64,000 bases of DNA, from assembly GCA_963575745.1 (NCBI GenBank), contig CAUYUJ010000182.1, forward strand, positions 1 to 64,000, read 5' to 3'. This DNA is from Prorocentrum cordatum. Taxonomy: Eukaryota. Of this stretch, positions 2,771-64,000 are shown piece by piece (position 1 is the first letter of the stretch; every line of letters starts with the position of its first letter). Both the position numbers and the translations under genes were made by a program. Under the pieces are notes generated by a model that was not told the origin of the DNA, ran no database searches, and saw only the letters and a list, made by a program, of their open reading frames with translations.

Positions 2771-3030
2771 AAACAAACGTTTGACAAACGTTTGGCAAAC
2801 GTTTGGCACGCGTTTGACAAACGTGTGACAAACGTCGTTGCAAACGTCTGACAAACGGTTGGCACACGTTGTTGCAAACGTTTGACAAACGTTTGGCAAC
2901 CGTTGGGCACACGTTTTTGCAAACGCTTGACAAACGTTTGGCAACTTGTTAACAAACGATTGTCGAACGCTTTGTCTGTATATCGTGTTGGTATAGTTGA
3001 GTTCCCCAGATTGCGAAACAAACGTTTGAC
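2771..3030. repeat. CAAACGTTTG palindrome cluster 2 (~11-bp period)
   Basis: More than a dozen exact or near copies of (GA/GG/TG)CAAACGTTTG. Confidence 0.9.
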
Positions 3031-9559: not shown

Positions 9560-11832
9560 CTCCCTGCAACCATCTACGAAACGATCTTCAGCTGCTTCAC
9601 GGCGGCGAACGCATTGTACATGTTGTTGCAGGCCTTCTGCGCCCCCACCAGCGACGGGCTCTCCTCTGCCTTCAAGTCCCCGAGCACGTCGCGGTTCTTG
9701 CGAACGTCCGTGAGCACCTGGCATCGGCAAGGGCAGCCCCCCAGTTCGTGAGTTCCTACCCACAGGGGGTCGCGAGAATCCATGGGGCGATCCCTCTGCT
9801 CGAGCATTAGACGACATCGAATTGCGAATTGCAGGGCCGACGCACAAGGGTTTAGAGTTTAACGTTTAGGGCGTAGGGCTTAGATCGTAGGGTGTAGGTT
9901 GTTGGGTGTGTGACCAGTACTTGCCCTACGCTTGCTCCTCCTTCTATGCGTGCCCCTTCTGTTCATGTACTGTATGGGGTTGGGCGTGGGGGAGCACGGG
10001 GAGCGGTGGGAAGTGGGTAGAGGATGGGTATACGCACCCCACTTGCCCATGTCATATCAATATTTCTACTTGCACTCGTGGAGGGCGAGGCGGCTGCCGC
10101 GGAGTTTGAGAGGCGCTGTGGCCTGCTGGGGAGTGAGGGCGGTGGCTCGTACCACTGAACGATGCAAGGCGGGGTGGGTGGGGTGGGGGTGGGGGTGGGG
10201 TGGGCGGGGTGGGGTGCGGTGTGGTGCGTGTGGGTTGTTTTTTGGGATGTGGGGGGGGCGGGCGGGGAGGGGGGCGGGGGCAGTAGAGCAGGTACGAGAT
10301 GCACTGGCGTCCTTCTTGCCTTCACGAGTCTGTCCTTCTTGACCTTGTTCGCAGCCTACTTGATGTCCTGCTGGAGCTTCTCCACGAGGCCCTGGGCAAG
10401 GGGCGAAGGCGAAACGCACTGCGAGCGAGAGGGCGCGCCCACGTGAAAGCTCGAGTGAGGGGATCGACTACGTAATTGATGCGCACCGAAATTGGCGCGC
10501 CCTTCGAAACGACAAAAATTAAATCTGCTGGTCCTCACAACTGCGGGCATTCCACGCTTTTTTGTAGATCCGAAGGGCGCGTCATTGGGGTACACCAACT
10601 ATGTTGTTGACCCCCTGTGCGAAAGCTGGGTAACAATGAACAGGGGCACGCACGTGTCGCACGTGGGAATGCCGAAATGGCGAGACTGCGAGATGGGCGC
10701 CTGCTGCATTCGCGGCGGGAATTCCCGGGTGTAGGCGCGCGACGTCAGCCTTTTTTTTTTTTTTTTATTTTTTTTTTTTATTTTTTTATTCTTTTTTTTT
10801 TTTTTTTTTTTTCTTTTCTTTTTTTTTTTTTTATTTTTTTTTTTTTGTTTAGGACCGCACATCCACCCTCAGAACCATCCCCCGGACACGCGCATTCCCT
10901 GAACGACTGCCAGCCAGGATGCGACATGTTTGCAACTGCCATGGCGCCGTTGAGGCGAGGTACATGTTCGACATGGTGTCGACGGCGACCTGGTAGTTCA
11001 TCATCTGCGGCTTGCCCATCGCAAGCACGTCCTGCCAGTCGGAGATCTTGACCGACTTGGCCTCACTGGAAAGCGGTGGCAAACGGCTCCGTGGCCCGTC
11101 CAGAAGGCCCAACCCAGTGAAGGAGGGGGCGAACAAGTGGGGGGGGGAGGTGGAGGGGGTGCGTGGGGGGCGGGCGCGGAGGAAGCAGGACGAACACACG
11201 CGTTGGAGGGAGGGCGGTGGGCGATGGCGGCATGGGGGGTGGGGGGACGCGCGGGGCGACGGGGAGTCAGGACGAAGAGGGGGGCGCGCGGGTTCACGCG
11301 CGCTGGCGCGGGGGAGTTGAGAGTGCGAGGAGGTGGGGGCGAGGAAGCGGGTTGGGGCGAGTCGGAGAAGCAGGAGGAAATAATCGGAGGATGCGGAGGT
11401 GGAGAAAGATGATGACAACGACGGCGGGAAACAACCATCCGCGCCTTCGGCTTCGCTGCAACTCCGCGACCGCGACCGCGACCGCGGCCGCGATTTTGAC
11501 TGCCTGTCTCCTCGGGCTCATCATCATGCTCGTCGTTGCTCTCGTAGCCCATGTTCTGGAAATCGCCTCCAGATGTTTTATATGTCGTCATCGGTCCAAG
11601 CAGCAGCGTAGCCCCGGGCCCAATTTTCTCAGGTGGTGCAACATGGCGCACCATGGTTTCCAGGGGCCGATCGGTTTGCGAACGATGGGCGGGCAGTTCC
11701 CCCAGCCCAGCAGCAACGCAACGCAGCTACGCCTTCGTCAACGCTAAGCTCTGTCGCGGTCTTCTCAATACTCTCCCATCTTGCCCTCTCTCGCGTTCTC
11801 TCTCTCTCTCTCTCTCGCCCGACCACCTCCCC

Positions 11833-14800: not shown

Positions 14801-16314
14801 GTTATTGCGACGAGGCTTGGGTGGCCCAACTCATCTACATCGAGCGAAACTCTGGAACCATAACATTGTTCAAAACCGCGTGCACCCTCCGCTCTCTATT
14901 CAATGTGCTTCTACGAGCCGCTTCAATAATATCCAGACGTCCCCTTGTCACCGTGCACGGCCAAGGTGAGCTCGCCCTTGCCCTTGTCTTGCCCTTCTGC
15001 TTCGACTGCGCGACGCCCCGCTTCTTCGGCTGCGCCTGCGTCTTGGCGGTCTTCTTCAAGTTGGCCTGGCAAGGAGGATGCACGCTTTGCAAATACACGT
15101 GCGCGGCAGCCGCTGCGAGCAGCCCCTTTTCAAGTTGCGCATTGACGCGGCGCCCAAACCGCTGCGCCAGTTTGCAAAATTAAAGGGGCAGCTCGCAACG
15201 CCTGCCGCGCAATCCAGCTGGTCATAATTCTTCACGCTTGGCGTATCCCCATCAGCCCATCTCAAAACAGCAACTCTTGCGAAACATGAGGCCTCGTGGT
15301 GCCTCCTGGGGACCTCTGGTGGGCCATCTGGGGAACTCTAGGGGCCATCTGGTGGGCCTCTGGGGGCCATCGTGGGGGGCTTGTATGAGCGCTGCCCGTC
15401 CTCCTGGTGTGACTCGTTCGGGCTCCGCGTGGTGTGAGTCGTTCGAGGCCCGCGTCGTGGTGTGAGTCGTTCGGGCTCCTCATGGTGTGAGTCGTTCGGG
15501 CGGCTCGTCCTGGTGTGAGTCGTTCGGGCCCCTCCTTGTGGTGTGAGTCGTTCGGGCTCTTCGTGGTGTGAGTCGTTCGGGCCCCTCGTCCTGGTGTGAG
15601 TCGTTCGGGCTCCTCGTGGGGCCTCTTGGGGGCCTCTTGGAGCCTCTTGGGGCCTCTTGGGGGCTTCTTGGGGGCCTCTTGGGGGCCTCTTGGGGGCCTC
15701 TTGGGGGCCTCTTGGGGCCTCTTGGGGGCTCTTGGGGGCCTCTTGGGGGCCTCTTGGGGCCTCTTGGGGGCCTCTTGAGGGCCTCTTGGAGGCCTCTTGG
15801 GAGCCTCCTGGGGGCCTCTGGGGGGCCATCTTGGGCCCCTGGCGATCTCTTCAGAAGCGCAAATGGGCGCTGCCCCTTGAGAAGGACAAAATGAGCCCAA
15901 AACCTTCGTAACACCAATGATTTTGCTATGAAGGAAGAGGAGCGCGGCCCCCTTCAGAAGGCCAAAATGGGGCAGAAACCGTAGTAAAATCAATGATTTT
16001 GGCTTCAAAGAAGAGCAGAGGGGCCAAACTCGCCCCCCCCCCGTCGGGGCCAGAATCCTCGTAAGGGTCGTCGTTTTTTTGGCCCTCCCAGGAGTCGAAA
16101 AAGACCCCCCCTGAGAACACTCGGGGCTCCCTGTCCAGGCCCAGAGGGGGGGGGGGGGGGTAGGGGGAGGGGCAAACCCCTCCCCGAAGGGGAAGAAGGG
16201 GGATTGAGGACAGAGAGAGCTCTCTAAACCACTCACGCCCAAAGGGCTGGTGGGACTAAACCCAAAGCGAACCTTGATCACTGGAGCACCCCGTTTCGAG
16301 CCCTTTGGGGGCAT
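9560..16314 (-). CDS. Multi-exon hypothetical protein with basic N-terminus (possibly pseudogenising)
   Basis: Phase-compatible exons: 16314-16273 (MPPKGSKRGAPVIK, AAG|GT), 15065-~14960 (ANLKKTAK..), ~14530-14438 (HPSSKKSTAELVRK..LFR, AG|GC), 14103-13905 (QYGDG..AWLK, AAG|GA), 13321-13166 (DPSMQETFW..WKQMLDKYGEEEAEERLEAGSIK, AAG|GT), 12623-~12453 (VRRDPAHPKRRQYLD..), then pieces at ~11.44-11.64, 10.95-11.1, 10.3-10.4 and 9.56-9.72 kb. One or two in-frame stops lie near exon edges. Confidence 0.6.
10750..10850. repeat. Poly-T tract (intronic)
   Basis: ~100 nt almost pure T. Confidence 0.95.
11785..12210. repeat. (CT)n microsatellite followed by alternating purine/pyrimidine (CA/TA/TG) low complexity
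   Basis: Direct inspection. A similar CA/TA tract lies at ~9255-9460. Confidence 0.85.
15262..16257. mobile_element. ~1-kb intronic insertion with minisatellites and a terminal stem-loop (non-autonomous element, Helitron-like by inference)
   Basis: GTGTGAGTCGTTCGGGC-based repeats (~15405-15610) and a GGCCTCTTGG(G) array (~15617-15835). Ends in the hairpin CCACTCACGCCC-AAA-GGGCTGGTGG (~16229-16254). Confidence 0.5.
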
Positions 16315-16654: not shown

Positions 16655-16780
16655 CAAACGTTTGACAAACGTTTGTCAAACGTTTGTCAAACGTGTCTCG
16701 AACGACAAACGTTTGTCAAACAACGACAAGCGTTTGTCGTTTGTGACAAACGTTTGACAAACGTTTGACAAACGTTTGTC
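16655..16780. repeat. CAAACGTTTG palindrome cluster 3
   Basis: ~9 copies, ~340 bp upstream of the ATG at 16314. Confidence 0.9.
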
Positions 16781-40967: not shown

Positions 40968-41620
<653 letters not shown>

Positions 41621-42650: not shown

Positions 42651-52383
<9,733 letters not shown>

Positions 52384-53759
52384 GCCCCGGGCGCTCCAGA
52401 GATGGCTGGAGGAGGAGGAGGAGGAGGAGGAGGAGGAGGAGGAGGAGGAGGAGGAGGAGGAGGAGGAGGAGGAGGAGGAGGAGGAGGAGGAGGACCACTT
52501 CTCCCTGGGGGCGACGCCCCTCACGGGGCGGCCGGGCGCGGGCATGCCCTCCCGCCCCCCTCCAGGGTCCGCTTCGATCCGGTCGAGCCGATTCGATGCC
52601 GATATCGACCAGCCAGAGATCCGATTCGATGCAGGGGTTCCAGAGGTCCGATGCGGCCCGACGCTCGCATTGCGCCACTGTGCATCGGGGCAAGGTGGAT
52701 CTAAGGCGATTCCGACGCCGTGCCGATGACGCCCGATCTCAAGGAGTGGCGTGGCGTCCAGGTTTGCTCATAGGCCTACCAAATACTAGCTGGCCGCTCT
52801 GCGGTTGATCGGGAGTTTCTGTGTATAGAAGAAGGGGCGTGCGTTTCTTGGCGAGAGGAGAAAGACCGAGAGGAGAATGAACGCACGGATCAGGAGGACG
52901 AGGCTCGCGAGGGGGAGGATCAGGAGAGTGAGGGTCACGCGAGTGAGGATCAGTCGAGCGTGGAGCAGGAAGGTGAGGATGTGGTGAATGAGGGCTAGGA
53001 GAGCTAGGACGAGGAGAATGAAGATCAGCAGGGTGAGGATCGGGCGAGTGTGGAGCAGGAGTTTGAGGATCAGCAGAGTGAGGATTGGCAGAGTGAGCAT
53101 CACGAGAAGAGCGAGGATCAGGATAATGAGAATGAGCATGAGCAAGGTGAGGATCAGGATCGTGAGGCAGGAGGGTGAGGGTGTGGAGAGCGAGAATCAG
53201 GAGAGTGAGTCATTATCATGATTGGGAATGCCTCGAGTGACAGCCCTGCTGGGATACGCCCGGCGCGCGCCCCGGAAATGGCCCCTGCAGGGGCGCGGTT
53301 GGGCCTGACCTACGACACGCCCAGCGCGCGCCCTGGAAATGGTCCATTTCGGCGCAGGTCGTGCGCCGGGGATCGACTTTGCGAGGATGTCTTGAGCGAT
53401 CGAGAGCCCTGCTGGGACACGCCTGGCGCGCGCCCCGGTCCTGGTCCTTGGGGGCGGGGTCCCTGCAAGTCGCATCTGAACATAAGAAATGCGTTTAGAT
53501 GCGATCGCGCCCTGGTGCAGGCGAAGAAGCCTATCGTATCTAGTTCTGTTCCCAACCCTCCTTGGTTGGGTATTCGTTTTGAACAAGGGACTGTGGTCTC
53601 CGCCTTCCTTCCTCCCGCCTCCCTCCCTCCTCCTGCGTCCTGCTTCCTGCTTTATTCCCAACCCTCCTTGGTTGGGTATTCGTTTTGAATAGATCACTGC
53701 TCGCGCGTCTCCTCCCGCCTCCCTCCTGCCTCCTGCCTGCCTCCTCCTGTCTTGCCTGC

Positions 53760-55080
53760 GGGGGGCTGCGATCTGTGAAACTGTCGTCACTTTCGAGGCC
53801 TGCTGGGGGGCCCAGCACAGTGACGCCACGCGCGGACCCAAATCAGACCTCGCCATCCCTGGGGGATTGCGATCTGCGAAACTGTCGCCACTTTCGAGGC
53901 CTGCTGGTGGGTCCAGCGGAGTGAGGCACCGCGCGGATCTGAGCAAGACCTCGCCGTGCCTGGGGGGCTGCGACCTGCGAAACTGTCGCCACTTTCGAGG
54001 GCTGCTGGTGGGTCCAGCGGAGTGAGGCACCGCGCGGATCTGAGCAAGACCTCGCCGTGCCTGGGGAGGCTGCGATCTGCGAAACCGTCGCGACTTTCGA
54101 GGGCTGCTGGTGGGTCCAGCGGAGTGAGGCACCGCGCGGATCTGAGCAAGCCTCGTCATGCTTGGGGGGCTGCGATCTGCGAAACCGTCGCTACTTTCGA
54201 GGGCTGCTGGTGGGTCCAGCGGAGTGAGGCACCGCGCGGATCTGAGCAAGACCTCGCCGTGCCTGGGGGGGCTGCGATCTGCGAAACTGTCGCCACTTTC
54301 GAGGGCCGCTGGTGGGTCCAGCGGAACCGCGCGGATCTGAGCAAGACCTCGCCGTGCCTGGGGGGCTGCGATCTGCGAAACTGTCGCCACTTTCGAGGGC
54401 TGCTGGTGGGTCCAGCGGAGTGAGGCACCGCGCGGATCTGAGCAAGACCTCGCCGTGCCTGGGGGGCTGCGATCTGCTCGCCACTTTCGAGTCGCGCGGA
54501 TCTGAGCAACGCTGCGATCTGCGAAACTGTCGCCACTTCGAGGGCTGCTGGTGGGTCCAGCGGAGTGAGGCACCGCGCGGATCTGAGCAAGACCTCGCCG
54601 TGCCTGGGGGGCTGCGATCTGCGAAACTGTCGCCACTTTCGAGGGCTGCTGGTGGGTCCAGCGTGAACCGCGCGGATCTGAGCAAGACCTCGCCGCGCCT
54701 GGGGGGCTGCGATCTGCGAAACTGTCGCCACTTTCGAGGGCTGCTGGTGGGTCCAGCGGAGTGAGGCACCGCGCGGATCTGAGCAAGACCTCGCCGTGCC
54801 TGGGGGGCTGCGATCTGCGAAACTGTCGCCACTTTCGAGGGCTGCTGGTGGGTCCAGCGGAACCGCGCGGATCTGAGCAATCCTCGCCATGCTTGTGGGG
54901 CTGCGATCTGCGAAACTGTCGCCACTTTCGAGGGCAGCTGGTGGGTCCAGCGGAGTGAGGCACCGCGCGGATCTGAGCAAGACCTCGCCGTGCCTGGGGG
55001 ACTGCGATCTGCGAAACTGTCGCTACTTTCAAAGGCTGGTGGCGGGTCCAGCGGAGTGAGGCACCACGCAGATCTTAACG
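53760..55080. repeat. ~101-bp tandem satellite, ~13-14 copies
   Basis: Unit CTGCGATCTGCGAAACTGTCGCCACTTTCGAGGGCTGCTGGTGGGTCCAGCGGAGTGAGGCACCGCGCGGATCTGAGCAAGACCTCGCCGTGCCTGGGGGG, with deletion variants. Confidence 0.95.
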
Positions 55081-55369
55081 GGACCTCGCAATCCTTGAAG
55101 AGTTGCGAGTCTCACGAATGCCGCTTGCAGAAATATATGATCCCATGTCACCTCATAATTTCCGTATAACGTCTCCCAAGTTATTCATGCCCCGCACTGC
55201 GCAAGGGTAGGGTACGTCGCCAGGGTAATTGTTAGATGCGCGCCCCCGGCCTGCGCGGGAGCGCCAATGTTTCAAACATGTATAAAACATTGGGACCGTA
55301 TCTGTTTTCGTCAAGAAAACATATATATATATATATATATATGATTGGAGATGATTCCAGTACAAACAA

Positions 55370-58300
55370 TATGTTGAATTAATTTGTTTATTTAAGTGAG
55401 TGTAATTAAACCGTATGAATAAATAAAATTAATAAAATTAATTGAATTATTTTAACTATTGAATTAATCTGAATACAATAAATAAAGTAGATAAAATAAT
55501 TGAATTAATTCAATCAGTTTTATTTATTTTATTTAGTTTATTTATTTTATGTATTTGTCTGGCCTCCCTGGAGGAAATCCTGGGGACCCTCATCCGCAGC
55601 CGAATTAATTTAATTAATTTAATTAATCCGTCTGAATTAATTTAATTAATCAAAATAGTTAAATTAATTCGGCGGCCTAAGCCCGGCGCGGCCTGTGTGA
55701 GGAGGCCAGAAAGATAAACAAAATAAATGAAATAAATAACATAAAAAATTAATTGGATTGATTTAATTATTTAATTAACCTGAATACAATAATTAAAATA
55801 AATAAAACAATTAAATCAATTCAATCAATTGTATTTTTTCTATTGATTTTAGTTGTTTTATGTATTGTATTTATTTTTCTGGCCTCCCTGGAGGAGATCC
55901 TGGGGACCCTCATCCGCAGCCGAATTAATCTAATTAATTTAACTAACCCGTATGGATTAATTTAATTAATTAAAAGAATTGAACTAATTCGGCGGCCTGA
56001 GCCCGGCGCGGCCTGTGTGAGGAGGCCAGAAATAAAATAAATAAATGAAATGAAATAAATCAAATAAATAAAATGAATTGAATTAATTGAATTATTTAAT
56101 TAATCTGGATAGAATAAATAAACTAATCAAATGTTTCAAGTCGTTTCATTTATTTTGTTTAATCTATTTACCTTATTTATTTTTCTGGCCTCCCTGGAGG
56201 AGATCCTGGGGACCTTCATCCGCAGCCGAATTAATTTAATTAATTTAATTAATACGTATGGAACAATTAAATAAATTTAAATAATTAAATTAACTCGGCG
56301 GCCTGAGCCCGGCGCGGCCTGTGTGAGGAGGCGTGAAAACATAAAATACTTAAATACATAAAATAATTATCATCTATAAAATTAATTGAATTAATTTGAG
56401 TATTTAATTAATCTGAATACAATACATAAAATGAATAAACTTATCAAATTACTTGTTCATTAATTTTATGTATTTTATATATTATTTTATTCAATTTATT
56501 AATTTTTCTGGCCTCCCTGGAGGAGACCCTGGGAATCCTCATCCGCAGCCCAATTAATCTAATTAAGTTAATTCATCCGTATGGGTTGATTCAATTAATT
56601 GAAATAATTAAATTAATTCGGCGGCCTGAGTCCGGCGCGGCCTGTGTGAGGAGGCCAGACAAATAAACAAAATAAATAAAATAAATTGAATTAATTTAAG
56701 TAATACATTAGTCTGAATACAATATATAAAATTAAAAAAAAAAAAAATAAATAAAGTAAAAAATAATTAAATTAATTCAATTCTACTTATTTTATTTATT
56801 GTATGTATTTTATTTATTTTTCTGGCCTCCCTGGAGGAAATCCTGGGGACCCTCATCCGCAGCCGAATTAATTTAATTAATCTAAGTAGTCCGTCTGGCT
56901 TAATTAAATTAATCAAAATAATTGAAACAATTCGGCGGCCTAAGCCCGGCGCGGCCTGTGTGAGGAGGCCAGAAAGATAAATAACATTAAAAAGTAAATA
57001 AAATGAATTGAATTAAATTAATTATGTAATTAATCTGAATCCAATAAATGGAATAAATAAAATTAATACATGAATTCAAGTAATTCTATTTATTTTATGT
57101 ATTTTATTCATGCCATGTTATTTAATTATTTTTCTGGCCTCCCTGGAGGAGATCCTGGGGGCCCTCGTCCGCAGCCGGATTAATTCGATTAATTTAACCA
57201 TTCCGTATGTATTAATTAAACTAATTAAAATAATTAAAATAATTCGGCGGCCTGAGCCCGGCGCGGCCTGTGTGAGGAGGCCAGAAAATATAATCTTCCA
57301 AATACATAAAATAAATAAATCAGTTGAATTAATTGAACTTATTCAATTAATCTGGATATAATAAATAAGATAATTAAAGTAATTCAACCAATTGTATTTA
57401 TTTTATGTATTTTATTCATGTTATTTTTTCTGGCCTCCCTGGAGGAGATCCCGGGGGCCTTCATCCGCAGACGAATTAATTCAATTAATTTCATTCATCC
57501 GTATGGGTTAATTAAATTAATTGAGCATAATTAGATTAATTCGGCGGCCTGAGCCCGGCGCGGCCTGTGTGAGGAGGCGAGAAAAATAAATGAAATAACT
57601 AAAATAAATAAAAGAAATAAAATAACTAAAACTTATTGAATTAATTTAATTAAATCATTAATCTGAATACAATAAATACAATAAATAAAATGATCAAATT
57701 AACCCAATTAATTTTATTTGTTTAATTCATTTTTCTGGCCTCCCTGGAGGCGACCCCGGGGATCCTCATCCGCAGCCCAAAAATTAAATTAATTTAAGTA
57801 ATCCGTATGGATTAATTAAATTAATTGAAATAATCAATTAATTCGGCGGCCTGAGCCCGGCGCGGCCTGTGTGAGGAGGCTAGAACATGAAAAAAAATAA
57901 TAAAAAAACAATTTAGAATAACTGACTCAATTTAATTTAATCTGAATGCAATAAATAAAAAAATAAATAATTAAAATAATTTAATCAATTATGTTTTTTT
58001 TTTTCCTTTTTTTTAAAAAAAATGTTTTTGCTTATTCTATGTATTTATTTTTTTTTCTGGCCTCCCTGGAGCAGATCCGGGGGATCTTCATCCGCAGCCG
58101 AATGAATCTAAAACGTTGAATTCACTCGGCGGCCTGAGCCCGGCGCGGCCTGTGTGAGGAGGCCAGAAAAATAAACAAAATAAACAAACTGAATAGAATT
58201 AGTTGAATTAATTTCGTTCAATTAATTTTATGTATTCTATTTATTTTATGTATTTAACTAATTTTACATATAATAACTAAAATAAATAAATAATTGAATT

Positions 58301-58497
58301 AGTTCAATTCATTTTATTAATTATATATATTTTATGTGTTTCATTGATTTTTTCTGGCCTCCCTCCAGGAAATCCTGGGGGCCTTTATTTTTCAACCGAA
58401 TTAATTTAAGTAGGTTAACTAATCCGTCTGGATTAATTAAATTAATTAAGACAATTAAATTAATTCGGCGGCCTGAGCCCAGTGCGGCCTCTGTGAA
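55370..58497. repeat. AT-rich tandem array of ten ~310-bp units with two conserved GC-rich cores
   Basis: Core A TCTGGCCTCCCTGGAGGAGATCCTGGGGACCCTCATCCGCAGCCGAATT at ~55558, 55878, 56184, 56507, 56821, 57133, 57429, 57734, 58056 and 58352. Core B AATTCGGCGGCCTGAGCCCGGCGCGGCCTGTGTGAGGAGGCCAGA follows each. Confidence 0.95.
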
Positions 58498-58504
58498 ACG
58501 ACGG

Positions 58505-60240
58505 CTCTAGAAGTACAGCTTGCATTTATTCTTGATTTTTCCCCCGGGCTGTGCCCGCACAGCTTCGGGGGAAAAATGCGCGATGCCAGTTCTGCGTCGT
58601 CTTGGAGGCTTCTGGGGCCGTCTGGGAGGCCTGCCGGGTGAACGTGAGGCCGTCTTGGACCCTCTCGGGCCGTCGTCGAGGCCATCTCGGACCATCTTGG
58701 GCGAGCTCGGAGGCAATCTGGAACTCCCTTTTGGGTCATCTTGGACGCTCTAACGGGTCGCGGCCCTCCTATGCGAATCAACTAGACTTGATAAGGGAGA
58801 ACGCGCATTGTCGTGGACTGCCCTGGACGTTGAGCTTTGTACGCATTCCGGAGTTTTCCCCCGAGCTGTGTCCTCGCAGCTTCGGCGGAAAAATGCGCGA
58901 TGCCAGTTCTGCGTCGTAGTAGGAGAGCAGGGGGAGAGGAGGAATAGTAGGACGAGGAAGAGGAGAAGGAGGAGGAGGAGGAGGAGGAGAACGAAGAGGA
59001 GGAGGAGGAGGAGGAATACGAGGAGCAGGAAGAGAAGGCAATAGTCAAAAGCAGAGGGGACGTGCCCACCCCATGCGAATCAACTAGCCTTGATCAGGGA
59101 CCCCCGCGTATTGTCGTGGACTGCCCTGGAAGTGCAGCTTTCATGTATTCCGGATTTTTCCCCCGGGCTGTGCCCGCACAGCTTCAGAGGAAAAATGCGC
59201 GGTGTCAGTTCTGCGTCGTAGTAGGATGGCCGTCGGAAGGCCGAAAAGAAGAAAAAATACAAACCTTCCAAACACGTTTGGGTAATCAATGATTTTGGCC
59301 TCTTCGGGGCTTCCTGGAGAACCTCTTGTTGGCCTCTTGGGCCGTCTTGGAGACCTCTGGGGCCGTCTTGGAGGCTTGTTGTGTGAACGCGGAGGCGTCT
59401 TGGATCCTCTTGGGCCGTCTTCGAGGCCATCTTGGACCATCTTGGGCGAACTTGGAGGCAATCTGGAACCCTCTCTTTGGCCACCTTGGGCGCTCTAGCG
59501 GGTCGCGCACCCCCATGCGCATGTATTGTCGTGGACTGCCCTGGAAGTACAGCTTCCTACTGATTCTTGGATTTTTCCCCCGAGCTGTGTCCGCGCAGTA
59601 TCGGGGGAAAAATGCGCGATGCCAGTTCTGCGTCGTAGTAGGAGAGCGGAGGGAGAGGAGGAAGAGTAGGACGAGAAGGGAAAGGAGGAGAAGGAGGAAA
59701 ACGAGGAGGAGGACGAGGAGGAAGAGCAGGAATACGAGGAGCAGGGCGCGGAGGCAATAGTCAAAAGCAGAGGGGCCGCGGCTCCCCATGCGAATCTAAA
59801 TAGCCTTGATCACGGAAAAGACGTACTGTCGTGGACTGCTCTGGAAGTACAGCTTTCATTTATTCTGGATGTTTCCCCTTGGCTGTGTTCGCACAGCTTC
59901 GGGAGAAAAATGCGCGGCGTTAGTTCTGCGTCGTAGTAGGATGGCCGTCGGAAGACTGAAAAGAAGAAAATACACAAACCCTCCAAACATTTTTGGTAAT
60001 CAATGATTTTGGCCTCTTCGGGGCCTCCTGGAGAACCTTTTGTTGGCCTCTTGGGCCGTCTTGGAAGCATCTGGGGCCGTCTTGGAGGCTTGTTGTGTGA
60101 ACGAGGAGGCGTCTTGGACCCTCTTCTTGGGCCGTCGTCGAGGCCATCTTGGACCATCTTGGGCGAACTCGGAGGCAATCTGGAACCCCCTCTTGGGTCA
60201 TCTTGGACGCTCTAACGGGTCGCGGTCCCCCATGCGAATC
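58505..60240. repeat. Composite higher-order repeat (~720-bp period built from ~300-430-bp subunits)
   Basis: The block ..GGACTGCCCTGGAAGTACAGCTT..AAAATGCGCGATGCCAGTTCTGCGTCGT occurs five times. The block GGCCATCTTGGACCATCTTGGGCGAACTCGGAGGCAATCTGGAAC occurs three times (~58680, 59425, 60142). Confidence 0.9.
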
Positions 60241-62115
60241 AACCGGCCTCCTGCTCCATAGTGGTCTGGTCACTTCCGCCTGAGCCATCCTCGCAACTCT
60301 AGATTCAGAGACGCCCTGAGCTCAGGTATTCAGGCCGTTTCGCTTGAAGCATTCTCGCAACTCAAGGTTCCCAGATGCTGAACTCGGAGATGCATTGACC
60401 CAAGGTTGTCCGGCCACTTACGCCGCGATTTGCATGTAATGACTCGCATATACTGCGTGTCTCGTATATGCGCCGCCACTTGCCAAAATTACAGGTTCAC
60501 TTGATTACCCATTTATGTGATAACAGGTTTGCCAGATACCTTGTTTGCCCGATGACGGGTTTGCCATATAACAGGTATGCATCATACAACACGTTTGCAT
60601 GATAGCATGGCTGCATGATAACATGTTTGCCAGATGACGGGCTTGAGAAAGTACAGGTTCGCTTGACGACGCGTGTCCGTGATTGGCAAGGCACGGACTT
60701 ACGGTCTCACGTACCCTCTTCCTACAAAACCCAATCGCACACCTCCCTCCCGCATACAGACACGACTATCCATGACTATAGCAAACGCAGCATGATGACG
60801 ATGTAAAAAAGCTGCGGCAAGCGCGTCGTACGCGATTACGCAGCGCGCGTTCCTTGCGCACGCAGTGCGTTCAGCGCGTCGTACTCTCGCGTTCGCGCGA
60901 CCAAAGTTCAGCGAAATATTGCAGGCGCGCGTCGCCGCGCGCCCTGCCGTTGCTCGCGGCGCTTCGTCGCGCGCGCGCGCGAATGCGACGCGTCGAGCCG
61001 CGCATTCGACTTCAAACCGCGCCTGGCGCATATGCGTTCGACGTGCTTTCTCGTTTGGCGTGTTATCGTCGGGTATTTCTTGCTGAAGTTCCAACAGTAG
61101 CAGCAAGGGTGCCCGACGACGCTCCAAACGGTAGAACGCGTCGAACACGTATGCGCCCAACGCGCGCCGTTGCGAACCGCGCGGCGTTGCGTCGTTTTCG
61201 CTCGTTCGCCCCAAGTAGCGAGGCTGGCAACCGCGCTCGGTTGCACCGCGTAGCGAGCGCTACGTTTCGCGCGGTCGGCGCATCCAACTACACAGCCCCC
61301 GACGAGCCTCGGGTGCCCGCGGGGCGCGGCGGATTTATTACAGCTCACGCGCTGAGAAGCCCATGCGGGGATGGCGGATACGTTTGTCTCTGCGTCTTGG
61401 GGGGGTTCTTTGGTTACTTGGGGGTCTCTTTGGGGAGCCTTTGGGAGCTTGACTTTGGGCGAAGGCGTTTCTAGGAGAGCGTGGACCCCAGACAGTGAAT
61501 CAAACACGCAGAAACAACATGCTCTGGTAGGCCAAATACTTGAAACACAAACACCATCATTAACACTGACACTTGCGGCATGACACGAAGTGCAAGCCAT
61601 GACCAGTTGGATTCGAAGACGCGTGGTGTCAGATATTCGGTGTGATTCCAAGCCCACATTATGTATTCTGCTGCCGTTTTGGTTGTACAGCTAAGCCTCG
61701 TGCTTTCTGGCGCCGTGCAGATCCAATCCATGTCTGACATCGATGGTGCTTCTCCGGTCAATGAACTTGGTGACGCCAGGGCCGCCGACGTTGACGGCCC
61801 GCGCCCCCCTTGGCGTCGTCGCATGGGGCCGCTCGTGCTTGGCCCACTGACATGTTTCCTGATCGTGGCCGGCCCTGGATGCCATTGGGCTAGACTGTTC
61901 CAGCGCGAGGAGAGGGCACATTTGGGGAGGCCGCTGCGCGACAACCACGTCGTTGGACTCATCGTCGGACATTGGCAATTCTTCCAGGAGGTCCCTGAAA
62001 ATTCGTAGTTCCTAGATGAGCTGAGGTTGCTCCAGGCTGCCGTGCGCCGCGGAAAGGGCAGGAGGTTTGTTTTTTTCTAACATATGTTGCGAGGGCCAGG
62101 TTTACATTTCATGAT

Positions 62116-64000
62116 GTGGCAGATTTCCGCGAGCAATCTCCAGGAGAACTGTTTCAGAGACTATTGCCGTTGCAGGGAGAGTGCCCAGAAGGTGGAGTGA
62201 CTACTTGTGGCGAGTGGGTTCGATTGATGTGTGACGCTCAGAATGGTGGCAAAGCGCTCCCCGTGGAGGTGGCGAGGCTAGGATATCATGTTGCTACGTC
62301 GGCAGAGGGTTCAGACTGGTACTTTTGGCATGCCACTGCGTTGGGATGGGGCTTCTCTCGGCGACCCGTCATCGGCAACGCGCCCACCCTCAGGCAAGTG
62401 AATCACGTCATGCAGGAGTTTGGGCCATTCGATTTTGATCGCTTCGAGTCTGCATTCTTGGACCTGCCAGGGGCGGTAACCCACGACTCCAGGAGCAAGC
62501 CTGTTCGAACAATTCTTGATTGGTTGGACGCGACGCGAGACTTGAAGCAAATGCGGATGAAGGATGCAGCTTGTGAAAAATGGAATAAGATCATCAGTGG
62601 AGCACGCGAGGTTGAAAACGCGCCGATTGAGGAGACGGTGGGCTACAATGTGTTGCGGTACGCTCGGGTACGGGTCGACTGCGTGGCCATGTTGTTGTGG
62701 AGGGAGCGGTTCGCCAGGCTCGACGGCGACGGATTCGATATACATTTGCACAGCGATGGGTCACCACAATGGGCTGGGGTGGAATTGTTCGCGTCCACGT
62801 TCGATATATTGACACCTTGCGCGCAGGGCCCGAGCAAGTATCATGTGGACAGGCGCCTGCTTCCGTTGATCAGCATCGGCATGTCAATGTTCAGTGCGCT
62901 TGGGAAGTGTTTCGCGCTCCTCTGGCAGGTCTTCCTCATAGCTGGGCCGCGCTTCGAAGATGTTCGCAAATTTCTTAACATAGTACGCTCGCTGACAGTT
63001 GACTTCGGCACTGAGCGGTTGCTGGCGGATTACGAGGACGTCCTGCCGTGGTTCTTCGGGTCCTGAGGCGGCGTGGTGCCGTCGAGGTTTTCGCAATTCA
63101 GTCATTTGCTGCCGCGTTGCTTGTTGGCTCCAGGGTGGCGGCGCACGGTGGATCGCATCATCGGGCGAACGCGTGGCGGCTTGCCTGTCTTCCCCCTCTT
63201 TCTCCGCAGAGTCAAAGCCATCAACAATTTCGCGAGGCACTATAGGTTGGATTTGACACGGCTGCTCAAGGATGTGGAGGCGTTCGGCGCGGCCGATCTT
63301 GTGCAGACTGCGTCTTTGCCATATTTTGCGGAGTGGAGGTGGGGAACTTTACATGGCGTCTTGAAGTCGCTCGAATCCTGCATCGCGGCCGTCGTGGCGT
63401 CGATTGACCTCGGCGCGTTTATCAAGTGGCAGACGGCAACCAAGATGGTCAAAGACGTCCAGGAGGCATTCGGATCGGGGCAGTTTCACATTGAATTGAA
63501 GTTCGTGGTGTGGTTTACCAGTTGGTTGACTGAGTTGCAGAATGCAGCGACGTGGTGTCCTTGTCATTTGGGAGCTTGCAAGAGGAAGGAGTACCCTGAC
63601 TGCAACATGCGAGGCCGTATACTGCCAATCGTTCCGGATATCAGATCACATTTCCTTGCTGAATCCATTGCTACGATAGAACAGTGGACGATCACGCAGT
63701 GGAGAGATGCAAATACATTGAGGCTTTTGCAAGGCAGCGCGCGGTGGGCGCACGGCCTGATTCTCGAGGTCGCACGGTTTGCAGATATGATCCCGCACCT
63801 TTTCAGCCGACTTGATCAGCCTCATGTGAAGGAGGAGTGCGTTCGCCAGTACACGTCGGAAAGCCACGACCAGCATCATAGAGTTTCGCAGTATTTCATG
63901 GACCCCGCTGGCCCCATGCGGCGACTAGTTGATGAGGTATCGGAGGCAGGTGAGATCAACGATGAGCATCTCAAGAGGGAGGTCGAGTCCGTCGCCAACA
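62116..64000 (+). mobile_element. hAT-like DDE transposase, one in-frame TGA (63064-63066), truncated by window end
   Basis: Motifs HSDGSPQ and SLTVDFGTE, then in the same frame after the TGA: LLAPGWRR, FAEWRWGTL, WCPCH, CNMRGR. The frame stays open to 64000. The order matches the D / TD / C(W)xxH / RW layout of hAT-type transposases. Confidence 0.65.

What the first reader, a model, noticed from the sequence alone, without database searches (positions are those of the whole stretch)
55370..58497. Ten-unit array of conserved fold-back GC cores in AT-rich spacers: candidate tandem structured-RNA (retrozyme-like) or fold-back element system
Seen: in a GC-rich window this 3.1 kb is extremely AT-rich except for two ~45-nt cores, nearly invariant across 10 units while the linkers drift in sequence and length. 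Each unit folds on itself. The outer stem is TTTCTGGCCTCC/GGAGGCCAGAAA, extendable by T-rich/A-rich flanks. There is a small (A)GATCC..GG(G/A) hairpin with variants, a long inner stem GCCGAATTAAT..AATCC-GTAT-GGATT..ATTAATTCGGC, and a GGCC..GGCC hairpin. Unit 9 (58097-58130) has lost ~40 nt of the inner stem but keeps it closed, with a compensatory T-A to G-C change (GAATGAAT/ATTCACTC). Inference: selection on a multi-way RNA or ssDNA junction rather than a neutral satellite. Tandem ~300-bp structured monomers recall retrozymes or rolling-circle intermediates, but no hammerhead (CUGANGA/GAAA) or complete HDV core is visible, so the motif could be new.
Basis: partly seen in the sequence, partly recalled or inferred. 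Interest (0 to 1): 0.8.

Follow-up and report, generated by a model that had tools for sequence, protein, structure and literature searches.

The report
Palindromic AT-rich satellite with GC boxes
A ten-copy, roughly 310-base tandem repeat, probably inside an intron of a dinoflagellate gene, is an old hairpin-prone DNA satellite whose two GC-rich boxes are unusually well preserved, but nothing shows that it makes a structured RNA or ribozyme.

Summary
There are ten head-to-tail units of 296-323 bp at 30% GC in a ~59% GC window. Each unit has two GC boxes flanking a 75-nt AT hairpin and folds far better than shuffles.

The RNA reading is not supported. No Rfam family reaches threshold and no ribozyme family matches at all. 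CTGANGA is absent on both strands. RNAalifold covariation terms are positive. G-U counts show no strand preference (20 against 28). The stems are inherited and decaying.

Two changes look like DNA hairpin events: unit 9 lost exactly the upper stem-loop, and unit 10 carries a double substitution that perfects a small inverted repeat.

The boxes do evolve several times more slowly than the AT DNA. Base composition explains part of this: A/T sites change 3.7 times as often as G/C sites here, against 1.0-3.1 times in control satellites. It does not explain all of it, because A/T sites inside the boxes are also slow. The truncated terminal unit has decayed in its boxes only.

Best reading: an old quasi-palindromic satellite, probably intronic in an aspartyl-protease gene, with an unexplained sequence-level constraint on the boxes. 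No relatives were found in any collection searched.

The parts
55370..55468 (+). Degenerate left-edge partial unit: an AT hairpin remnant with a CCGTATGA loop and no GC boxes. A (TA)n run lies just upstream, at about 55323-55343.
   Evidence: Sequence read. The loop-motif hit at 55411 is. Only weak nhmmer hits lie at 55376-55448 (E 0.1-0.4).
55469..58510 (+). Ten head-to-tail units (u1-u10), cut at the linker centre CTGAATACAAT: 55469, 55780, 56105, 56413, 56713, 57035, 57352, 57663, 57942, 58189.
   Evidence: alignment A1. nhmmer E values are 1e-60 to 1e-91 for all ten.
55559..55709 (+). u1 core element: 5' GC box (44 nt), AT inner hairpin, 3' GC box (40 nt). The same element in the other units lies at u2 55879-56029, u3 56185-56335, u4 56508-56658, u5 56822-56972, u6 57134-57284, u7 57430-57581 and u8 57735-57883.
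   Evidence: Anchors. Alignment A2. Helices counted.
58057..58166 (+). u9 core element. A 42-column deletion removed exactly the upper inner stem, the loop and most of the bulge. The lower stem is kept, with one T-A to G-C double change and one A-C mismatch.
   Evidence: A2 columns 65-106 are gapped in this row.
58354..58497 (+). u10, the terminal unit. Its boxes have decayed (14 of 76 positions changed, mostly G/C to A/T) and its 3' box is cut off after GGCCTCTGTGA. A GG to CC double change makes CCAGGA..TCCTGG a perfect inverted repeat.
42651..52384 (+). Six aligned blocks of an aspartyl-protease gene (residues 1-328 of transcript-like protein P0001). The last block ends 3.0 kb upstream of the array, on the same strand.
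   Evidence: tblastn. Pfam Asp domain. Relatives.
53760..55089 (.). Upstream neighbour: a GC-rich 101-bp satellite.
   Evidence: Tandem Repeats Finder.
58498..60250 (.). Downstream neighbour: another repeat family (at least 5 copies), each copy with a TTTTCCCCCGGGCTGTG..CACAGCTTCGGGGGAAAAA hairpin. It abuts the truncated u10.
   Evidence: blastn of the right flank against the window. Sequence.

Best explanation
This is an old non-coding satellite. A quasi-palindromic unit of about 310 bp was amplified head to tail and now sits in repeat-filled DNA downstream of the last mapped exon of a dinoflagellate aspartyl-protease gene. It is probably inside an intron longer than 11.6 kb.

It evolves as DNA. 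The hairpin potential was inherited from the amplified unit and is decaying through independent, uncompensated mutations. Hairpins that form in replicating DNA account for the precise loss of the upper stem-loop in unit 9 and for the palindrome-perfecting double substitution in unit 10.

The two GC boxes change about 4-6 times more slowly than the AT-rich DNA. Part of this is mutational: A/T sites are more changeable in this genome, and low-complexity AT tracts slip. The remainder is a constraint on sequence rather than on base pairing. It most likely reflects protein binding to the boxes or sequence homogenisation confined to them.

Shown: the anatomy, the lack of covariation, and the rate differences. 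Inferred: the intronic position, the DNA-hairpin mechanisms, and the cause of box conservation.
For: The units share only about 74-89% identity, and most AT-region variants are singletons (80 of 100 in the linkers, 32 of 46 in the inner hairpin). The array is therefore old and little homogenised.

Pairing is not maintained. 87.6% of cells pair against 88.0% in shuffles, the upper stem is only 81.9% paired, and there are 2 double-sided pairs against 3.3 expected. There is no strand bias in G-U pairs (20 against 28). Covariation terms are positive on both strands.

No Rfam match reaches gathering, no tRNA is found, and no hammerhead core is present.

The u9 deletion begins at the first pair of the upper helix and removes the whole hairpin.

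Composition effect: A/T sites changed in 197 of 1649 cells and G/C sites in 22 of 615 (odds ratio 3.7). Control GC-rich satellites in the same window give odds ratios of 3.1, 1.0, 2.1 and 2.0.

Context: satellites lie on both sides. The transcript-like protein P0001 maps at residues 1-328 upstream, and residues 329-574 are missing from the window. The database gene model P0003 splices across the array.
Against: Composition does not explain everything.
- A/T sites inside the boxes are 2.4 times slower than A/T sites outside (p 0.002).
- The change in rate happens within about 5 nt of the box edges.
- The terminal unit's boxes changed in 14 of 76 cells against 25 of 684 in units 1-9 (p 6e-6), while its AT parts did not speed up (22 of 159 against 195 of 1508). 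The boxes are therefore not intrinsically slow, which points to real constraint and so possibly to a function.

The u10 changes may be a few complex events rather than 14 independent ones. The covariation test has low power with ten related units. Only one locus could be examined, and no genome, relatives or reads were available.
Confidence: 0.5

Rival explanations
1. The array is a cis-acting DNA element. The GC boxes are binding sites for a sequence-specific protein, set in AT-rich DNA prone to cruciform formation, and each intact unit is under purifying selection. It could act as a replication origin, a centromere-like site or a chromatin-domain boundary.
For: Constraint falls on sequence, not on pairing. 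The 5' strand of the outer stem is invariant in all 10 units, while its partner is mutated without compensation in 3 of 9. Box edges are sharp. The boxes of truncated u10 have decayed. This is the only AT-rich island in 64 kb. Passages in PMC11453091 say that dinoflagellate TAD boundaries have lowered GC.
Against: The mapped upstream gene blocks and the downstream ORF are both on the + strand, so this is not a convergent boundary. The array lies inside a probable intron. No second locus, binding protein or chromatin data are available. The u10 argument rests on a single unit.
Confidence: 0.15
2. The array encodes a new structured non-coding RNA, possibly self-cleaving. Each unit folds into a junction closed by the outer stem, with the AT hairpin as a variable arm.
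For: Conserved segments with fast-diverging spacers is the pattern seen in tandem small-RNA genes. u9 keeps the hairpin closed after a 42-column deletion. Folding gives z -3.9. If intronic, the array is transcribed in the sense direction with the host gene.
Against: There is no covariation and no G-U strand asymmetry. The outer stem is broken in 3 of 9 units. No Rfam match reaches its gathering score and none is to a ribozyme family, even for the short u9 form. CTGANGA is absent.
Confidence: 0.12
3. The array is a satellite derived from a transposon. Each core element would be a MITE-, foldback- or Helentron-like non-autonomous element of about 150 bp, with 9-12 bp terminal inverted repeats (CTGGCCTCC..GGAGGCCAG) and differing subterminal repeats, amplified in tandem together with its AT flank.
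For: There is an outer inverted repeat of 9-12 bp. Short direct repeats lie inside each box, read directly from the sequence: CTGGnnnnC three times in the 5' box and GGCCTG twice in the 3' box. The interior is AT-rich and hairpin-forming. That MITE- and Helentron-derived satellites exist is recalled, not taken from a call.
Against: No dispersed copy lies elsewhere in the 64-kb window. No target-site duplication is visible. There are no terminal inverted repeats in the array flanks. No transposase domain was found in the 124 long ORFs scanned. An inert transposon relic would not keep its boxes.
Confidence: 0.12
4. The array is organelle-derived DNA: a nuclear insertion of mitochondrial intergenic repeats, or of the non-coding core of a plastid minicircle.
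For: The 30% GC equals the 30% GC reported for a dinoflagellate mitogenome (passages of PMC12584245). Dinoflagellate mitochondrial intergenic DNA is rich in inverted repeats (passages of PMC2151934). Minicircle cores are AT-rich, 250-500 bp long, carry inverted and direct repeats, and replicate through rolling circles (abstract of PMC2665238).
Against: No organelle gene fragment or domain was found anywhere in the window. The flanks are nuclear-type GC-rich repeats. The units are about 20% diverged. No organelle sequence of this organism was available for comparison.
Confidence: 0.05

Closest known systems
Satellite DNA with dyad symmetry and a conserved protein-binding box, such as AT-rich alpha satellite with its 17-bp CENP-B box (recalled, not from a call)
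   Same: Head-to-tail non-coding units of a few hundred bp. An AT-rich body that diverges by about 20% between units. Short boxes that stay conserved. Edge units are degenerate.
   Different: There are two GC boxes of 40-44 nt per unit, flanking a 75-nt hairpin. Only ten units at one known locus. It lies inside a probable intron. No binding protein or chromosomal role is known.
Retrozymes: tandem or LTR-flanked monomers carrying hammerhead ribozymes (recalled)
   Same: A tandem monomer size of about 300 nt and a strongly self-complementary unit.
   Different: No hammerhead or other catalytic core is present. No evidence of circular RNA. No covariation.
Non-coding core regions of dinoflagellate plastid minicircles (PMC2665238 abstract; PMC1679814 passages)
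   Same: The same host lineage. AT-rich non-coding DNA of 250-500 bp with inverted and direct repeats and short conserved cores.
   Different: This array is embedded in nuclear GC-rich repeats next to a nuclear gene. It is tandem, has no plastid gene, and its stems are decaying rather than being kept perfect. Homology could not be tested.
MITE- or foldback-derived satellites and Helentron/DINE-1-type arrays (recalled)
   Same: Short terminal or subterminal inverted repeats, an AT-rich microsatellite-like interior, hairpin potential, and a tandem arrangement.
   Different: No target-site duplication, no dispersed copies in the window, and no TC/CTRR ends.

Membership tests
Retrozyme | A hammerhead ribozyme in each monomer | tested here: not met
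   No hammerhead family matches in the Rfam scan of both strands at E up to 10. CTGANGA occurs 0 times on either strand of 55370-58510.
Retrozyme | Circular RNA monomers or a self-cleaved transcript | not testable with these tools
Any Rfam self-cleaving ribozyme (HDV-like, twister, pistol, hatchet and others) | A match to the family covariance model | tested here: not met
   There were 13 matches at E up to 10: 10 to miRNA precursor models, 3 to sRNA models and 1 cis-regulatory stem-loop. All are below gathering (best 36.3 bits against 70).
Structured RNA under selection (generic) | Compensatory covariation in the helices | tested here: not met
   Covariation terms are +1.16 and +0.47. There are 2 double-sided pairs against 3.3 in shuffles, and 87.6% of cells pair against 88.0%. 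Power is low with ten related units.
Satellite DNA | Head-to-tail tandem repetition of a non-coding unit | tested here: met
   Ten units at 296-323 bp spacing. No tRNA. By eye, the changes in the 5' box show no third-codon-position excess (columns).
Satellite DNA | Further arrays or high copy number in the genome | not testable with these tools
   No genome is held for this window. No other copy lies in the window.
MITE / foldback element | Terminal inverted repeats | tested here: met
   The 12-bp outer stem is paired in 87.5% of cells, and its 5' strand is invariant.
MITE / foldback element | Target-site duplications and dispersed solitary copies | tested here: not met
   No copy lies outside the array in 64 kb. 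The flanks of each element are inverted (T-run and A-run), not direct. Genome-wide presence is not testable.
Plastid minicircle core or mitochondrial insertion | Homology to organelle DNA, or adjacent organelle gene fragments | tested here: inconclusive
   No organelle-type Pfam domain was found in the 124 long ORFs of the window that were scanned. No organelle sequence of this organism was available.
miRNA precursor (mir-5365, MIR5070) | Score at or above the Rfam gathering threshold | tested here: not met
   36.3 bits against 70, and 25.9 against 100. These are generic AT-hairpin matches, and the arms are the fastest-evolving part of the core element.

The most novel reading that the evidence does not exclude
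The two GC boxes are recognition sites for a sequence-specific DNA-binding factor, and the AT-rich, cruciform-prone array is a chromosomal cis element of a dinoflagellate. It could be a replication origin, a kinetochore-attachment (centromere-like) site or a domain boundary. To my recollection (not taken from a call), none of these has been defined at sequence level in this lineage. The layout of conserved box, about 75 bp of more than 80% A+T, then conserved box would then parallel, by analogy only, the CDEI-CDEII-CDEIII design of budding-yeast point centromeres (recalled).
Probability: 0.1. Interest if true: 0.8.

Novelty: new member of a known kind. Interest (0 to 1): 0.33.

Why it matters
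If this is only a satellite, it matters little. It would be one more repeat in a very repeat-rich dinoflagellate genome. It is still a clean example of how a DNA palindrome decays and of how base composition can mimic selective constraint.

The residue that composition does not explain deserves one cheap follow-up. It consists of sharp-edged boxes, slow A/T sites inside them, and decay of the boxes only in the truncated end unit. Sequence-specific cis elements are essentially unknown in dinoflagellate nuclear DNA. A genome-wide census of the two boxes would show at once whether this is a private repeat or a recurrent, positioned element.

Tried and rejected
Public runs: the look-up of sequencing runs listed 3 DNA holders, each with a 0.06 share of words, and no RNA holder. 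Nothing follows about expression or habitat.

Relatives:
- The exact 24-mer of the 3' box had 0 hits in metagenome, genome and viral contigs.
- A degenerate 26-mer of the 3' box had 0 hits in the same three collections.
- A degenerate 5' box pattern had 0 hits in viral contigs.
- blastn of two units against phage records gave no match.
- Four 18-mers were found in 0 papers.
- Earlier-findings look-ups by genome, sequence and relatives returned nothing.

Ideas tested and dropped:
- That the two boxes are diverged palindrome arms. The central 31 and 27 nt align no better than shuffles (score -9 against a mean of -6).
- A higher-order repeat. The 4-unit offset gives 80.3% identity against 79.1% at the 1-unit offset, which is too weak.
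- That the array is cargo of a larger element. There are no inverted repeats between the flanks.
- CpG decay as a neutral clock. In the boxes of u1-u9, 0 of 126 CpG cells show a transition. CpG is not hypermutable in the control satellites either (0/352, 4/140, 1/100, 5/100), so the test says little.
- A gradient of conservation away from the boxes. None was seen beyond about 5 nt.
- A coding reading of the 5' box. The frame is open, but the changes show no third-position excess (by eye).
- Homology between the spacer hairpin and the inner hairpin. Only weak nhmmer hits were found (E 0.07-0.9).

The long ORF downstream, which forms the second part of protein P0003, has no Pfam family, and its best Atlas score of 0.82 is uninformative.

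Supplements of the papers were not opened.
Full report
**What is there.** Bases 55370-58497 hold a tandem array. A 42-nt segment that starts just before the 5' GC box recurs ten times, at spacings of 320, 306, 323, 314, 312, 296, 305, 322 and 297 bp. The three 1-kb bins over the array have GC fractions of 0.344, 0.298 and 0.297. Every other bin of the window lies between 0.49 and 0.77.

Each unit reads, in order:
- a T-rich arm;
- a 44-nt GC box (CTGGCCTCC...GCAGCCG);
- an AT hairpin of about 75 nt with a GTAT or GTCT loop;
- a 40-nt GC box (CGGCGGCC...GGAGGCCAG);
- an A-rich arm;
- an AT spacer centred on CTGAATACAAT.

The boxes occur nowhere else in the window on either strand. A degenerate partial unit without boxes lies at the left edge (55370-55468). 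The tenth unit is truncated in its 3' box, where it abuts another repeat family.

The units fold much better than shuffles. A core element as RNA gives z -3.9, with 0 of 200 shuffles as good. Two units as ssDNA give z -9.4, with 0 of 20. The unit profile matches its own reverse complement at E 3.5e-31. The unit is therefore a quasi-palindrome, and a tandem array of it necessarily has two dyad centres per period.

**Where it lies.** No genome is held for this window. Of 124 long stop-to-stop ORFs scanned against Pfam, four had any hit at the thresholds used. One reached its family's curated cut-off: a eukaryotic aspartyl-protease domain at 48445-49230. Its named relatives are dinoflagellate proteins (Prorocentrum cordatum at 60% identity, and Alexandrium), so the organism is inferred to be a dinoflagellate.

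A transcript-like 574-residue relative (P0001, on a 2.28-kb contig) aligns at residues 1-328 in six blocks at 42651-52384 on the + strand. Residues 329-574 have no significant match anywhere in the window. The database model P0003 splices from 52384 to 62392, across the array. The array therefore probably lies in an intron longer than 11.6 kb. This is an inference. The alternative is that this gene copy is truncated.

Satellites lie on both sides: a 101-bp array at 53760-55089, and a family of at least five copies at 58498-60250.

**Is a structure being selected?** The Rfam scan of both strands (E up to 10) gave 13 matches. All were below gathering, and they were 10 miRNA precursor models, 3 sRNA models and 1 cis-regulatory stem-loop. 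None was a ribozyme, even over the naturally shortened unit 9. CTGANGA is absent on both strands, and ARAGORN finds no tRNA.

RNAalifold gives positive covariation terms, which act as a penalty: +1.16 on the + strand and +0.47 on the - strand. Each strand has one pair with a double change.

I then counted it on the ten units.
- 87.6% of cells pair, against 88.0% when 3' partners are shuffled among units (446 of 500 shuffles reach the observed value).
- 2 pairs have a double change, against a shuffled mean of 3.3.
- The upper inner stem is only 81.9% paired.

An arm therefore pairs with its own partner no better than with the partner of another unit. The stems are inherited and are accumulating uncompensated mismatches.

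Transition mismatches show no strand preference: 20 are G-U on the + strand and 28 on the - strand. The compensatory T-A to G-C change in unit 9 is real, but it is the single event that shuffles predict.

The outer stem's 5' strand is invariant in all ten units. Its partner is mutated at one position in 3 of 9 units without compensation. The constraint, where there is one, is on sequence and not on pairing. Ten related units give little power, so this is absence of evidence rather than disproof.

**Is the conservation of the boxes only base composition?** Partly. Pairwise divergence among units 1-9 is 0.24 in the linkers, 0.196 in the inner hairpin, 0.096 in the 5' box and 0.035 in the 3' box.

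Relative to the column consensus, A/T sites changed in 197 of 1649 cells and G/C sites in 22 of 615 (odds ratio 3.7, p 1e-10). Four GC-rich satellites in the same window give odds ratios of 3.1, 1.0, 2.1 and 2.0. A/T sites thus tend to change more than G/C sites in this window (three of four controls), but generally by less than in this array. Nearly all G/C sites lie in the boxes, so being G/C and being in a box cannot be separated on those sites (19 of 567 against 3 of 48).

Three results go beyond composition.
- A/T sites inside the boxes changed in 10 of 189 cells, against 187 of 1460 outside (p 0.002).
- The change in rate occurs within about 5 nt of the box edges. Invariant columns are 68 of 84 in the boxes, 31 of 67 in the inner hairpin and 36 of 113 in the linkers.
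- In the truncated terminal unit the boxes changed in 14 of 76 cells, against 25 of 684 in units 1-9 (p 6e-6). Its AT parts changed no faster, at 22 of 159 against 195 of 1508.

The boxes are therefore not intrinsically slow. The last result rests on one unit. Several of its changes sit in a cluster and may be one complex event.

AT-region variants are mostly singletons (80 of 100 and 32 of 46), and unit identities are 74-89%. The array is old and not being homogenised as a whole, which makes array-wide gene conversion an unlikely cause.

**Signs of DNA-level hairpin processes (inference from the alignment).** The deletion in unit 9 spans A2 columns 65-106. It starts at the first pair of the upper inner helix and removes that helix, its loop and most of the 3' bulge, leaving the lower stem. 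This is the expected outcome of replication slippage across an extruded hairpin.

In unit 10 a GG to CC double change turns an imperfect inverted repeat into the perfect CCAGGA..TCCTGG. This is the signature of template switching within a quasi-palindrome.

The hypervariable part of the 5' box is itself a 13-nt quasi-palindrome, and it is perfect in unit 9.

**Relatives and literature.** No relatives were found.
- An exact 24-mer and a degenerate 26-mer of the 3' box had 0 hits in metagenome, prokaryote-genome and viral contigs.
- A degenerate 5' box pattern had 0 hits in viral contigs.
- blastn against phage records gave nothing.
- Four 18-mers were found in no paper.
- Earlier-findings look-ups by genome, sequence and relatives returned nothing.
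- A word look-up returned AI notes on hairpin arrays of Symbiodiniaceae plastid minicircles, which are said to be kept perfect. Here the stems decay.

From the literature:
- Minicircle cores are described as AT-rich, 250-500 bp long, with inverted and direct repeats (abstract of PMC2665238; passages of PMC1679814).
- Dinoflagellate mitochondrial intergenic DNA is rich in inverted repeats (passages of PMC2151934).
- TAD boundaries show GC dips (passages of PMC11453091).
- 5hmU is enriched in intronic and intergenic repeats (passages of bioRxiv 10.1101/2023.11.30.569493).

None of these papers describes this repeat.

**Verdict.** The best-supported reading (confidence 0.5) is an old quasi-palindromic satellite, probably intronic, that evolves by DNA-level processes. 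Its hairpins are a decaying legacy. Its GC boxes are conserved partly through composition-dependent mutability and partly through an unexplained sequence-level constraint.

The rivals are:
- an array of protein-binding cis elements (0.15);
- a new structured-RNA gene array (0.12);
- a transposon-derived satellite (0.12);
- organelle-derived DNA (0.05).

The retrozyme comparison fails its defining test. The kind of thing is known (satellite DNA with dyad symmetry and conserved boxes), and this member is new. Interest is modest. What could raise it is a genome-wide census showing that the boxes recur at positioned loci.

Noticed in passing
window 42651-52384 (+): An aspartyl-protease gene with very long, satellite-filled gaps between aligned blocks. 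Residues 1-57 of P0001 map at 42651-42821 and the next block starts only at 48429. The C-terminal 246 residues are not in the window.
   Followed up: partly
window 43413-45616: A 90-bp satellite of about 24 units with 95-96% matches and 180- and 270-bp higher-order periods. It lies in the gap between the first two protease blocks. In it, A/T sites change 3.1 times as often as G/C sites.
   Followed up: partly
window 58498-60250: A repeat family of at least five copies, each carrying a GC-clamped hairpin (TTTTCCCCCGGGCTGTG..CACAGCTTCGGGGGAAAAA) followed by degenerate 10-11-bp TCTTGGRGSCC-type repeats. Related 11-mers form arrays at 15290-15851 and 59295-59464.
   Followed up: no
window 62392-63999 (+), running off the end: A long open frame that forms the second part of the 1190-residue database model P0003 (residues 218-703 at 91% identity). 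It has no Pfam family and no informative Atlas neighbour. It may be a lineage-specific or mobile-element gene fused to the protease by the gene caller.
   Followed up: partly
window 40968-41619, 46615-47085, 10751-10850: Very long simple repeats: (TGA) about 96 copies, directly followed by (GGA) about 119 copies; (CTC) about 158 copies; and a 100-nt T-rich (83% T) run.
   Followed up: no
window 2774-2944 and 16655-16778: Arrays of the palindromic 11-mer CAAACGTTTGG/CAAACGTTTGA at two distant places in the window.
   Followed up: no
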